A stretch of DNA of 64,000 bases from Escherichia coli (GCF_048403405.1 NZ_CP183129.1), one strand, 5' to 3'; counted from the stretch's first letter, positions 6,001 through 9,000 are shown. Program-made: the numbers.

Positions 6001-9000
6001 GAGCGATTAAAAGAAGCAAAACTGCTGGCATCAACAGGGAGTACAGGCGACTCGTATGACAACGCGATGGCGGAGAGCATCAATGGTCTTTACAAAGCGG
6101 AGGTAATACACCGTAAGATCTGGAAAAACCGTGCAGAAGTGGAACTGGCCACACTCACGTGGGTGGACTGGTATAACAATCGACGATTGCTGGGAAGGCT
6201 GGGCCATACTCCTCCGGCAGAAGCAGAAAAAGCTTATTATGCTTCCATCGGAAACAATGATCTGGCAGCCTGAGTTCACAGATAAAACACTCTCCAGGAA
6301 ACCCGGGGCGGTTCAGTAATATCTGATCGTAACGGACGGACGCTGGAATTAACCGATGACCGCAGCACAGAGAGTAGGGGATGCGGACAGTCAAAGATCG
6401 TGGAGTTGGATTTTATAAATCTGTCTCCAGTAGTAGATGAACTGAATACAAAGTTGCCAGAGAGTGGTCTGTCAGGCAGGGAATCAGAAACCGGATATTA
6501 TTGACTGGTACATTGTGTCGGGCTGTGTACGTTCTCCCCGGACAGACAGTCTCAGTTCGTAGAATCTATAAATTACTGCTACTGATGCTGCCGGGGAAAG
6601 GTGTAACGAAAAAGCAGCCTCCGTTACCGGACAGCAAGAAGGCTGAATGAAGTTTATGGCGTTTGTATTTTGTAATGTCTGGCCATGCAGTAAATCCAGA
6701 CAGGTTTTTATTATCATGTGAAGTATTCTGCCATAAAATACTAAATTTCTATTTTGTGATGAATGCTGCAAAATTGAATCTGTACTCTGATGTAACTTTT
6801 ATCTGTTTCAGTGAAGCATGCCCACAGATTGAGTTATTAAGTTGTGGAAGAACAGCTCTGCCCCGCCTGCTTCTCTCCTTTCAGAAACCAGTATGTTGCC
6901 ATGCCCCGTCTTAATGGTGAGCGCTGAACCATACCTGCTTTTTCCAGTAATAACAGGTAATAGCGGGCCTGGTAATCCGTTACCGCCAGCGCCTCTGCAA
7001 TTTCTGCCGTTTTCCCTCCATCATGCCTGTTCAGAAATTCCAGTATTTCATTCTTCATATATTCACTCATCTCACTGTAACAAAGTTTCTTCGAATAATA
7101 AAAATCATGCTCTCTGTTATCAACGGAAAGGTATTTTTATTCTCTATGTTTGCTTTATTTGTTCAATTTAGTGAATTTGCTTTTTATTGGATTTATTTGA
7201 TGTGTATCACATTTTGCGTTTTATTTTTCTGCGAAAAGAAAGTCCGTAAAAATTCATTTAGACGATCTTTTATGCTGTAAATTCAATTCGCCATGATGTT
7301 TTTATCTGAGTACCCTCTTGCTATTAGTGTTTTGTTCTAGTTTAATTTTGTTTTGTGGGTTAAAAGATCGTTTAAATCAATATTTACAACATAAAAAACT
7401 AAATTTAACTTATTGCGTGAAGAGTATTTCCGGGCCGGAAGCATATATCCAGGGGCCCGACAGAAGGGGGAAACATGGCGCATCATGAAGTCATCAGTCG
7501 GTCAGGAAATGCGTTTTTGCTGAATATACGCGAGAGCGTACTGTTGCCCGGGTCTATGTCTGAAATGCATTTTTTTTTACTGATAGGTATTTCTTCTATT
7601 CACAGTGACAGGGTCATTCTGGCTATGAAGGACTATCTGGTAGGTGGGCACTCCCGTAAGGAGGTCTGCGAGAAATACCAGATGAATAATGGGTATTTCA
7701 GTACAACACTGGGGAGACTTATACGGCTGAATGCTCTTGCAGCAAGGCTTGCACCTTATTATACAGATGAGTCCTCGGCATTTGACTAAATTATGGCATT
7801 CCGGAGTTTCTGGAAGATAAAAAAAGAAGCCCTTATCAGAAAGCAGACAGGTTATATCAGTATTCTGTCGATAAATAACCTGCCCTGAAATACGAGAATA
7901 TTATTTGTATTGATCTGGTTATTAAAGGTAATCGGGTCATTTTAAATTGCCAGATATCTCTGGTGTGTTCAGTAATGAAAAAGAGGTTGTTATTTATGAT
8001 TAAGTCGGTTATTGCCGGTGCGGTAGCTATGGCAGTGGTGTCTTTTGGTGCATATGCTGCTCCAACTATTCCTCAGGGGCAGGGTAAAGTAACTTTTAAC
8101 GGAACTGTAGTAGATGCACCATGTGGTATTGATGCTCAGTCTGCTGATCAATCTATTGATTTTGGACAAGTATCAAAATTATTTCTGGAGAATGATGGGG
8201 AAAGTCAACCCAAATCTTTTGATATTAAACTTATAAATTGTGATATTACAAACTTTAAAAAAGCTGCTGGCGGTGGTGGGGCGAAGACTGGCACAGTATC
8301 TCTGACTTTTTCGGGTGTCCCAAGTGGTCCGCAGAGTGACATGTTACAGACCGTCGGTGCAACAAATACAGCTATTGTTGTCACCGATCCACATGGAAAA
8401 CGCGTAAAATTTGATGGTGCGACAGCAACAGGTGTTTCCTATTTAGTTGATGGTGATAACACAATTCATTTTACTGCTGCCGTCAGAAAAGATGGTAGTG
8501 GCAACCCTGTAACAGAAGGTGCTTTCTCAGCAGTTGCGAATTTCAACCTGACTTATCAGTAACAGTAATACGATAATCTGGTCCGGTAAACAGCGGAAAT
8601 ATTCCGCTGTTTATTTCTCAGGGTATTTATCATGAGACTGCGATTCTCTGTTCCACTTTTCTTTTTTTGCTGTGTGTTTGTTCATGGTGTTTTTGCCGGT
8701 CCGTTTCCTCCGCCCGGCATGTCCCTTCCTGAATACTGGGGAGAAGAACACGTATGGTGGGACGGCAGGGCTGCTTTTCATGGTGAGGTTGTCAGACCTG
8801 CCTGTACTCTGGCGATGGAAGACGCCTGGCAGATTATCGATATGGGGGAAACCCCGGTTCGGGATTTACAGAATGGTTTTTCCGGACCTGAAAGAAAATT
8901 CAGCCTCCGGCTCAGGAACTGTGAATTTAACAGTCAGGGTGGGAACCTTTTCTCTGATTCCCGGATAAGGGTGACTTTCGATGGCGTCCGGGGTGAAACG

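What the first reader, a model, noticed from the sequence alone, without database searches (positions are those of the whole stretch)
7264..7369. Intact pap Dam/Lrp phase-variation switch
Two GATC sites exactly 102 bp apart lie between divergent papI and papB, the hallmark of the methylation-dependent pap on/off switch. The regulatory logic appears intact even though papJ is frameshifted.
Basis: partly seen in the sequence, partly recalled or inferred. Interest (0 to 1): 0.4.

Follow-up and report, generated by a model that had tools for sequence, protein, structure and literature searches.

The report
Textbook pap Dam/Lrp phase-variation switch
This is the well-known methylation-based on/off switch that controls P-fimbriae in uropathogenic E. 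coli, with a sequence identical to that of reference strain CFT073, so it is real and intact but ordinary.

Summary
Observation confirmed. GATC sites at 7264-7267 and 7366-7369 are the only ones in the 404-bp region between divergent papI (6837-7070, -) and papB (7475-7789, +), and they lie exactly 102 bp apart. They sit in a 27-nt inverted repeat, each as ACGATCTTTT.

The whole papI-papB segment is 100% identical to the pheV-island pap operon of E. coli CFT073. All other sequence-level parts are present: a CRP site, a pI promoter, a -35/-10 pair overlapping the proximal repeat arm, and PapI and PapB ORFs.

The spacing is selected, not chance. Nine distinct pap alleles and the sfa operon all keep 102 bp. 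25 of 88 spacer positions vary, yet no indel falls between the boxes. An Edwardsiella fimbrial locus has the same boxes at the same spacing.

Interpretation supported; nothing is new. Methylation state and Lrp binding cannot be read from sequence.

The papJ frameshift is real in this sequence (G6 versus G7). hlyC carries a second homopolymer frameshift (A8 versus A7, found in no other genome), so assembly error is a serious possibility.

Side observations: a conserved 7-kb GATC-free stretch across papH-papG, and a switch allele that is mosaic relative to the closest genome.

The parts
6837..7070 (-). papI, the small co-regulator that redirects Lrp between the two sets of sites
   Evidence: 77-aa ORF. 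Pfam FaeA-like PF04703, E=2.4e-31. Matches the PapI structure PDB 2HTJ at E=1.7e-44. RefSeq product WP_000006206.1 'PapI' in the identical CFT073 DNA.
7095..7123 (-). papI promoter-like site (TTGATA, 17-nt spacer, TATTAT)
   Evidence: The only sigma-70 consensus match in 6780-8050, matching 10 of 12 positions. Its role as the pI promoter is inferred from position.
7128..7195 (.). AT-rich region with about 9-bp periodic T/A repeats; the expected PapB high-affinity site 1 between pI and the CRP site
   Evidence: Direct repeats D1 and D2. The CTGTGTTTG unit varies in copy number between alleles (1, 3 or 4 copies). The review places PapB site 1 40-90 bp upstream of pI, between the papI start and the CRP site (PMC11316696). 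The assignment is inferred.
7196..7211 (+). CRP (CAP) binding site TTTGAtgtgtaTCACA
   Evidence: The only match with 1 mismatch or fewer to TGTGA-N6-TCACA in the 64-kb window. Both half-sites are invariant across alleles. Its centre lies 215.5 bp from the inferred papBA start and 115.5 bp from the inferred papI start, matching the published CAP position as I recall it (own knowledge).
7246..7272 (+). Distal arm of the inverted repeat, containing GATC-distal (7264-7267) within ACGATCTTTT; corresponds to Lrp sites 4-5
   Evidence: Inverted repeat I1: 27 nt, 89% complementary. Only 1 variable column in 9 alleles. The GATC box is invariant in pap and sfa. The Lrp site numbering comes from the literature (PMC11316696).
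7273..7360 (.). Spacer between the arms (region of Lrp sites 6 and 1); sequence variable, length fixed
   Evidence: 25 of 88 columns vary among 9 alleles with 0 indels. The inner 58 bp is only 29% identical between pap and sfa, yet the length is the same.
7361..7387 (+). Proximal arm of the inverted repeat, containing GATC-proximal (7366-7369), read as ACGATCTTTT on the minus strand; corresponds to Lrp sites 2-3
   Evidence: Inverted repeat I1. Only 1 variable column in 9 alleles. The same AACGATCTTTTAACCC box occurs upstream of a PapB-family gene in Edwardsiella hoshinae.
7383..7411 (+). Candidate papBA promoter: -35 TTTACA (7383-7388), 17-nt spacer, -10 TAACTT (7406-7411); inferred start near 7419
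   Evidence: Read directly from the sequence. It matches 8 of 12 positions, below the scanner's threshold, as expected for an activator-dependent promoter. The -35 overlaps the proximal arm, consistent with Lrp at site 3 occluding the promoter (PMC11316696). Inferred, not mapped.
7475..7789 (+). papB, the first gene of the operon; activator of papI and autoregulator
   Evidence: 104-aa ORF. Pfam PapB PF03333, E=1e-36. Matches the FocB structure PDB 3M8J at E=3.2e-51. Identical to WP_000930062.1.
7996..15939 (+). Structural genes controlled by the switch: papA, H, C, D, J (frameshifted), K, E, F and G (class II adhesin)
   Evidence: ORFs. RefSeq annotation of the near-identical CFT073 and GN02323 loci. 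The papJ G6/G7 frameshift at 12772-12777.

Best explanation
This is the canonical pap epigenetic phase-variation switch of uropathogenic E. coli. Two GATC boxes 102 bp apart lie inside two mutually exclusive sets of Lrp binding sites. In OFF cells, Lrp occupies the promoter-proximal sites, which include GATC-proximal and overlap the papBA -35. This blocks transcription and shields that GATC from Dam, while the distal GATC is methylated. After replication, PapI together with Lrp can instead occupy the distal sites around GATC-distal. Dam then methylates the exposed proximal GATC, which keeps Lrp off the promoter. With CRP bound upstream, papBA is transcribed. PapB activates papI, which locks in the ON state. 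The methylation pattern is inherited, so each cell line is piliated or not. Shown here: all the DNA parts, their geometry, their conservation, and identity to the CFT073 locus. Taken from the literature, not shown here: protein binding, methylation states and switching.
For: Two GATCs lie exactly 102 bp apart between divergent papI and papB. The boxes form a 27-nt inverted repeat, each reading ACGATCTTTT. PapI and PapB family assignments are strong, and both match solved structures. The 953 bp is 100% identical to the CFT073 pheV-island pap and 16 other genomes, and about 1,220 of 5,426 complete E. coli genomes carry a homologue covering at least 80%. Spacing is invariant in 9 pap alleles and in sfa despite 28% variable spacer columns, and indels occur only outside the boxes. 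An Edwardsiella hoshinae fimbrial locus has the same boxes at the same spacing upstream of a PapB-family gene, whereas the 16 other pattern hits, all in unrelated phyla, have scattered gaps. A CRP site and a pI promoter-like site lie at the published relative positions. [quoted passage not shown] It places the GATCs in Lrp sites 2 and 5 and has site 3 covering the promoter (PMC11316696).
Against: Nothing in the sequence argues against it. The limits are as follows. No methylation or binding data can be obtained here. dam, lrp and crp are not in the window. The papBA promoter hexamers are weak and were not called by the consensus scanner. The Lrp site boundaries and the transcription start are inferred from symmetry and remembered coordinates, because the primary mapping papers are not in the library.
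Confidence: 0.94

Rival explanations
1. The switch is intact, but the operon it drives is decaying. The papJ frameshift is genuine, so switching ON yields defective or fewer pili, and periplasmic subunit stress feeds back on the switch through CpxR.
For: The G6 versus G7 run splits papJ. The same G6 allele is annotated as frameshifted in 6 of 614 genomes, including unrelated pap lineages. hlyC is also broken in this window, which would fit general attenuation of virulence genes. CpxR-P is reported to bind pap regulatory DNA (PMC11316696).
Against: Both frameshifts are single-base changes in homopolymers of 7 nt or more, the typical signature of assembly error, and the hlyC variant occurs in 0 of 372 genomes. 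All other pap genes are intact. PapJ's role is described only as possibly protecting pilus integrity, so its loss need not abolish pili. Published CpxR effects on pap conflict in direction.
Confidence: 0.35
2. The papJ frameshift, and the hlyC one, are homopolymer-length errors in the assembly. The whole pap locus, switch and structural genes alike, is fully intact.
For: Two of the three single-base indels relative to the closest genome (GN02323, 99.92% over 27 kb) lie in G6/G7 and A8/A7 runs, and each breaks an otherwise conserved gene. The hlyC allele is unique among 372 genomes, and the papJ allele is in about 1%.
Against: The papJ G6 allele recurs in several deposited complete genomes of different lineages. 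That recurrence could equally reflect real slippage at this run. There are no reads to check.
Confidence: 0.5
3. The two GATCs at 102 bp are a coincidence in AT-rich intergenic DNA and have no regulatory role.
For: GATC is a 4-mer, and 32% of composition-matched shuffles of the region contain two or more.
Against: Only 0.26% of shuffles give a 102-bp pair. The boxes are a 27-nt inverted repeat. They are invariant, with fixed spacing, across 9 alleles, sfa and an Edwardsiella locus, while the spacer diverges to 29% identity.
Confidence: 0.01
4. The switch is intact in sequence but functionally locked in one state in this strain because of trans-acting factors, such as H-NS, PapI or PapB homologues from other fimbrial operons, or the sRNA PapR.
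For: Cross-talk among PapB/PapI family members and repression of papI by PapR are documented (PMC5956150; PMC4546395).
Against: No evidence for this in the window. The identical regulatory DNA in CFT073 is expressed and regulated (pap1 genes respond in RNA-seq; PMC5956150).
Confidence: 0.1

Closest known systems
pap operon of the pheV pathogenicity island of E. coli CFT073 (pap1)
   Same: 100% identity over papI, the intergenic switch and papB (953 bp). Same gene order: papIBAHCDJKEFG-papX, then IS elements, then hlyDBAC.
   Different: The rest of the operon is not CFT073-like. There are 141 differences over 21.8 kb, 93 of them in papE. papJ is intact (G7) in CFT073.
Reference pap switch studied by the Low and Uhlin laboratories (GATC-I/GATC-II, i.e. 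GATC-distal/proximal; Lrp sites 1-6; PapI; CAP at -215.5)
   Same: Two GATC boxes 102 bp apart in Lrp sites 5 and 2, divergent papI and papB, an upstream CRP site, and a PapB site between pI and CRP (PMC2909390; PMC11316696). The geometry in the window reproduces -215.5 and -115.5 for CRP.
   Different: I could not align against the experimentally used clone because the primary papers and their sequences are not held. Allelic differences in the spacer are likely, given 28% variable columns among alleles.
sfa/foc (S and F1C fimbriae) switch, sfaC-sfaB
   Same: Divergent PapI-like and PapB-like genes, the same GATC boxes, a pair at exactly 102 bp, and a conserved promoter-side block.
   Different: The spacer is unrelated (29% identity), the intergenic region is shorter (355 bp), and a third GATC lies 8 bp upstream of the proximal one.
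Edwardsiella hoshinae fimbrial locus (NZ_BAUC01000007.1)
   Same: ACGATCTTTT and AAAAGATCGT boxes with a 90-nt gap (102-bp spacing), directly upstream of a PapB-family ORF, a fimbrial subunit and an usher-sized ORF.
   Different: Different genus. No PapI-like ORF in the roughly 640 bp available on the other side. Normal GATC density in the operon body.
Dam/OxyR switches (agn43, gtr of phage P22)
   Same: The same principle: methylation of specific GATCs and binding of a regulator are mutually exclusive and heritable (PMC2909390).
   Different: They use OxyR rather than Lrp, have no PapI-like co-regulator, and differ in GATC number and spacing.

Membership tests
Pap-type Dam/Lrp/PapI epigenetic fimbrial switch | Two GATC sites spaced 102 bp apart in the regulatory region upstream of the fimbrial operon | tested here: met
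   7264 and 7366, the only GATCs in the intergenic region. The signature is stated in PMC2909390.
Pap-type Dam/Lrp/PapI epigenetic fimbrial switch | Conserved GATC-box context (ACGATC within an Lrp-type GATCTTT core), with the two boxes in inverted orientation | tested here: met
   ttagACGATCTTTTat and, on the minus strand, ttaaACGATCTTTTaa. 27-nt inverted repeat, 89% complementary. Invariant across alleles and sfa. That ACGATC is the PapI-dependent determinant is my own recollection of Hernday et al. 2003, not verified here.
Pap-type Dam/Lrp/PapI epigenetic fimbrial switch | Divergently transcribed PapI-family gene | tested here: met
   PF04703, E=2.4e-31. PDB 2HTJ, E=1.7e-44. ORF uninterrupted.
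Pap-type Dam/Lrp/PapI epigenetic fimbrial switch | PapB-family regulator as first gene of the operon | tested here: met
   PF03333, E=1e-36. PDB 3M8J (FocB), E=3.2e-51.
Pap-type Dam/Lrp/PapI epigenetic fimbrial switch | CRP site upstream of the distal GATC, between the two promoters | tested here: met
   TTTGATGTGTATCACA at 7196-7211, the sole match with 1 mismatch or fewer in the window. Position consistent with -215.5 / -115.5.
Pap-type Dam/Lrp/PapI epigenetic fimbrial switch | Promoter overlapped by the proximal Lrp sites | tested here: inconclusive
   TTTACA-17-TAACTT at 7383-7411 overlaps the proximal arm, but it fell below the scanner threshold and the transcription start is inferred, not mapped.
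Pap-type Dam/Lrp/PapI epigenetic fimbrial switch | Lrp binds sites 1-3 or, with PapI, sites 4-6, in a mutually exclusive manner | not testable with these tools
   Needs footprinting or EMSA. Literature only.
Pap-type Dam/Lrp/PapI epigenetic fimbrial switch | Reciprocal non-methylation of one GATC in ON versus OFF cells | not testable with these tools
   Needs methylation-sensitive digestion or SMRT/nanopore calling on sorted populations.
Pap-type Dam/Lrp/PapI epigenetic fimbrial switch | Host encodes Dam, Lrp and CRP | not tested
   These genes are not in the window. They are core E. coli genes (own knowledge), and the window is E. coli island DNA.
Pap-type Dam/Lrp/PapI epigenetic fimbrial switch | Complete chaperone-usher operon downstream as phenotypic output | tested here: inconclusive
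   papA, H, C, D, K, E, F and G are intact. papJ is frameshifted at a G-run, possibly an assembly artefact.

The most novel reading that the evidence does not exclude
Two features around this otherwise textbook switch are not explained by the standard model and could matter. (1) The body of the operon is a conserved GATC desert: 0 GATC in 7,025 bp against about 18 expected. The depletion is shared by other pap lineages and by sfa, but not by the IS66 inserted in sfa or by the Edwardsiella operon. It might insulate the two regulatory GATCs from Dam, SeqA or MutH traffic, or lower mismatch repair within the pilus genes. (2) The switch allele appears to move by recombination independently of the structural genes: 11 of the 22 differences from the closest genome fall within 133 bp of the regulatory region, and there the window carries the CFT073 allele. 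That would let strains swap switching behaviour.
Probability: 0.12. Interest if true: 0.5.

Novelty: already known. Interest (0 to 1): 0.1.

Why it matters
The pap switch is the founding example of heritable, methylation-based gene control in bacteria, and it governs a kidney-colonisation adhesin. Finding it here only confirms that this island carries a standard, apparently working copy. That is useful for annotation: the strain can probably phase-vary class II PapG fimbriae. It does not add to understanding. The side observations may be more useful starting points than the finding itself. These are the strictly length-constrained but sequence-variable spacer, the mosaic switch allele, and the GATC-free operon body.

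Tried and rejected
1. The primary mapping papers (Nou 1995, Hernday 2002, van der Woude 1998, Casadesus & Low 2006, van der Woude & Baumler 2004, Totsika 2008) are not held. Lrp site boundaries, the ACGATC determinant, CAP at -215.5, and any CFT073-specific switching data therefore rest on my own knowledge or on reviews.

2. The paper search for 'ACGATC' plus 'PapI' returned only irrelevant hits such as 'papillary'.

3. The consensus promoter scanner did not call papBA. I placed it by eye. The scanner did find a pI-like promoter.

4. The cross-species pattern scan returned mostly chance matches in unrelated phyla with scattered gap lengths. Only the Edwardsiella hit was informative. The species-representative collection evidently lacks a pap-bearing E. 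coli.

5. I considered that the GATC desert is required for the switch to work. This is weakened because the Edwardsiella operon behind the same boxes has normal GATC density.

6. I considered that the desert merely reflects island-wide GATC poverty, as reported for GI-pheV in PMC4659465. This is insufficient. The rest of the window runs at 0.5-0.77 of expectation, against 0 for 7 kb here, and synonymous-codon shuffles never fall below 6.

7. Rfam found no structured RNA in the switch.

8. I did not fetch the second CFT073 pap copy or a fim operon as further controls.

Full report
**1. The observation**

The window has GATC at 7264-7267 and 7366-7369, 102 bp apart start to start.
- They are the only GATCs in the 404-bp region (32% G+C) between papI (6837-7070, minus strand) and papB (7475-7789, plus strand).
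- They are the only GATC pair at that spacing in the whole window.
- PapI matches Pfam FaeA-like PF04703 (E=2.4e-31), and PapB matches PF03333 (E=1e-36).
- Each protein matches a solved structure of its family: PapI matches 2HTJ, and PapB matches FocB 3M8J.
- In 200,000 composition-preserving shuffles of the intergenic region, a 102-bp pair arose 518 times, or 0.26%.

**2. Anatomy of the switch**

The two GATCs are not isolated tetramers. They sit in a 27-nt inverted repeat (7246-7272 and 7361-7387) that is 89% complementary. Each reads ACGATCTTTT, the distal box on the plus strand and the proximal box on the minus strand.

Upstream elements:
- TTTGATGTGTATCACA at 7196-7211 is the only match with 1 mismatch or fewer to the CRP consensus in the 64-kb window.
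- The only sigma-70 consensus match in the region is TTGATA-17-TATTAT on the minus strand (7123-7095), correctly placed for the papI promoter.
- Between that promoter and the CRP site lies AT-rich DNA with short periodic repeats. A review places the high-affinity PapB site there (PMC11316696).

Downstream elements:
- TTTACA (7383-7388), a 17-nt spacer, then TAACTT (7406-7411) is a plausible weak papBA promoter.
- Its -35 overlaps the proximal repeat arm, which fits the statement that Lrp at site 3 covers the promoter.
- Taking a start near 7419, the CRP centre lies at -215.5 from papBA and -115.5 from the inferred papI start. The proximal and distal GATC centres lie at -51.5 and -153.5.
- The -215.5 figure agrees with the published CAP position as I remember it. 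That is my own knowledge; the primary papers are not held.

**3. Identity**

The 953 bp from papI through papB is 100% identical to the pheV-island pap operon of E. coli CFT073 and to 16 other complete genomes. About 1,220 of 5,426 complete E. coli genomes carry a homologue covering at least 80% of it.

RefSeq annotates the flanking genes as papI, a PapB-family regulator, the papA-type major subunit (named only 'fimbrial protein'), papH, papC, a fimbrial chaperone (papD), a pilus-assembly fibrillin subunit (papJ), a fimbrial protein (papK), papE, papF, papG-II and papX. IS remnants and hlyDBAC follow.

The window is not CFT073 itself:
- It is 99.35% identical to CFT073 over 21.8 kb, and most differences are in papE.
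- The closest genome is the blood isolate GN02323, at 99.92% over 27 kb.

**4. Is the spacing more than chance?**

I compared 12 pap intergenic regions. They represent 9 distinct alleles, 89-100% identical, with lengths of 403-431 bp.
- Every one has its GATC pair at exactly 102 bp.
- Among the 9 alleles, 25 of the 88 columns between the repeat arms vary, but none carries an indel.
- Each 27-nt arm has a single variable column.
- All length variation lies outside the boxes: copy number of a 9-bp CTGTGTTTG unit on the papI side (1, 3 or 4 copies), one base near 7224, and one base in an A-run at 7392.

The sfa operon keeps both boxes and a 102-bp pair although the inner 58 bp of its spacer is only 29% identical to pap.

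I also scanned one genome per species (298 Gb) for the pattern ACGATCTTTT, 75-105 nt, AAAAGATCGT. It returned 17 loci.
- Sixteen are in unrelated phyla with scattered gap lengths, about what chance predicts for 20 specified bases.
- The single Enterobacterales hit, Edwardsiella hoshinae, has a gap of exactly 90 nt, which equals the 102-bp spacing.
- That hit lies directly upstream of a PapB-family ORF followed by a fimbrial subunit and an usher-sized ORF.

The spacing is therefore under selection. [quoted passage not shown]

**5. Mechanism**

The best explanation is the established one (reviews).
- Lrp binds either the promoter-proximal sites 1-3, with GATC-proximal in site 2, or, helped by PapI, the distal sites 4-6, with GATC-distal in site 5.
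- Whichever GATC is covered escapes Dam. Methylation of the exposed one disfavours Lrp binding there, so the state is copied through replication.
- Lrp at the proximal sites blocks the promoter (OFF).
- Lrp-PapI at the distal sites, together with CRP, activates papBA (ON).
- PapB then raises papI expression.

Shown here: the parts, their geometry and their conservation. Inferred from the literature: binding, methylation and switching. Nothing in the sequence contradicts the model.

**6. The papJ remark**

The frameshift is real in this sequence. A G6 run at 12772-12777 replaces the G7 of CFT073 and GN02323, which splits PapJ.
- The G6 allele is present in 6 of 614 genomes carrying this segment.
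- Those include strains with a different PapA and PapI, where it is annotated as frameshifted.

The window has a second homopolymer frameshift, in hlyC.
- An A8 run replaces A7 at the R-K-K-F codons (plus-strand T8 at 26831-26838).
- This allele is found in none of 372 genomes.

Two of the three single-base indels relative to the closest genome are thus in runs of 7 nt or more, and each breaks a virulence gene. That pattern fits either assembly error or genuine attenuation, and I cannot decide between them without reads.

If the papJ frameshift is real, it is not automatically irrelevant to the switch. Misassembled subunits are reported to signal through CpxR, which binds pap regulatory DNA, and the reports conflict on the direction of the effect (PMC11316696).

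**7. Comparison and novelty**

This is a member of the pap family of Dam/Lrp/PapI switches. Every defining feature testable from sequence is met, and the DNA is identical to a reference-strain locus. It is already known, and interest is low.

**8. Things seen on the way**

(a) A GATC-free operon body.
- There is no GATC from 8390 to 15414, a stretch of 7,025 bp running from the papA 3' end to early papG.
- The expected count is 18.3 by maximal-order Markov model and 27 at zero order.
- Synonymous-codon shuffles of the genes gave a mean of 13.8 and a minimum of 6, against 2 observed.
- No other 4-bp palindrome is depleted except the generally rare CTAG.
- The depletion holds in other pap lineages (4-5 observed, about 23 expected) and in sfa (5 against about 22).
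- It does not hold in the IS66 inserted in sfa (8 against 10) or in the Edwardsiella operon.
- GATC-free regions of 1 kb or more have been reported as enriched in mobile elements, including GI-pheV. The longest K-12 gaps cited there are 2.3-4.1 kb (PMC4659465). I did not find the pap operon singled out in that paper.

(b) A mosaic switch allele.
- Of the 22 differences from GN02323 over 27 kb, 11 fall in 7191-7323, inside the regulatory region but outside the GATC boxes.
- At those positions the window carries the CFT073 allele.
- This indicates recombination of the switch region independent of the structural genes.

(c) Rfam found no RNA family in the switch. It did find:
- AS-pc02 just beyond the papI 3' end;
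- STnc490;
- an IS3 ALIL pseudoknot;
- a STAXI RNA in the adjacent SPI-7-type integrative element.

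Noticed in passing
window 8390-15414: A 7,025-bp stretch with no GATC at all, running from the papA 3' end through papH, C, D, J, K, E, F into papG. 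Expected count is about 18 (Markov) or 27 (zero order). Synonymous-codon shuffles never fall below 6, against 2 observed in the CDSs. Other 4-bp palindromes are not depleted. The depletion is conserved in other pap lineages and in sfa, but absent from the IS66 inserted in sfa and from the Edwardsiella operon behind the same switch. GATC-free regions in GI-pheV are reported in general terms in PMC4659465.
   Followed up: partly
window 7191-7323: 11 of the 22 differences from the closest genome (GN02323, 99.92% over 27 kb) cluster in 133 bp of the pap regulatory region, 8 of them between the two GATC boxes, with no indel. At those positions the window carries the CFT073 allele, while papE and other genes are GN02323-like. 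The switch region is therefore mosaic, probably through recombination.
   Followed up: partly
window 12772-12777 (papJ): A G6 run where CFT073, GN02323 and about 99% of genomes have G7, which frameshifts papJ. The same G6 allele occurs in 6 of 614 genomes, including unrelated pap lineages (strains 447 and 572). This indicates either recurrent slippage or recurrent homopolymer error.
   Followed up: partly
window 26831-26838 (hlyC, minus strand, about 26648-27161): hlyC is frameshifted at an A8 run (A7 in GN02323) at about codon 108 of 170. The allele is found in 0 of 372 genomes carrying this segment. If real, the strain would make unacylated, inactive haemolysin. If not, it points to homopolymer errors in the assembly.
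   Followed up: partly
window 7142-7152, compared with L007 and L008: The 9-bp unit CTGTGTTTG (CTATGTTTG in the window) is present once here but 3 or 4 times in other pap alleles. This moves papI and its promoter 18 or 27 bp away from the CRP site and GATC boxes, within the presumed PapB site 1.
   Followed up: partly
L009 969-1323 (sfaC-sfaB intergenic region, strain A33): sfa has a third GATC 8 bp upstream of the proximal box (CAGATCAAAAGATCG), in addition to the 102-bp pair.
   Followed up: no
L017 12029-12534 (Edwardsiella hoshinae): A fimbrial operon led by a PapB-family ORF carries the same two GATC boxes at 102 bp, with proximal box AACGATCTTTTAACCC as in pap. No PapI-like ORF was seen in the roughly 640 bp available beyond the distal box.
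   Followed up: partly
window 6508-6686 (-), 4722-4844 (+), 5342-5458 (+), 51772-51932 (+): Rfam hits above gathering score: AS-pc02 antisense RNA about 150 bp beyond the papI 3' end, STnc490 Hfq-binding RNA, an ALIL pseudoknot in the frameshifted IS3, and a STAXI RNA in the SPI-7-type integrative element.
   Followed up: no
window 16202-16753 and 19913-27323: papX, an HTH regulator, follows papG. IS66 and IS600 remnants lie between papX and hlyDBAC on the opposite strand. Further on (about 37.8-52 kb) is an SPI-7-type ICE module with integrase, ParA, DnaB-PI, ParB and topoisomerase III. No tRNA gene is in the window.
   Followed up: no
loci L002, L004, L005, L029: Many deposited pap operons carry annotated frameshifts in different genes: papC in Nord58 and strain 447, papB and papA in EC958, and papA in MS 21-1. 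I did not test whether this reflects sequencing error or frequent decay within the GATC-free, possibly poorly mismatch-repaired operon.
   Followed up: no
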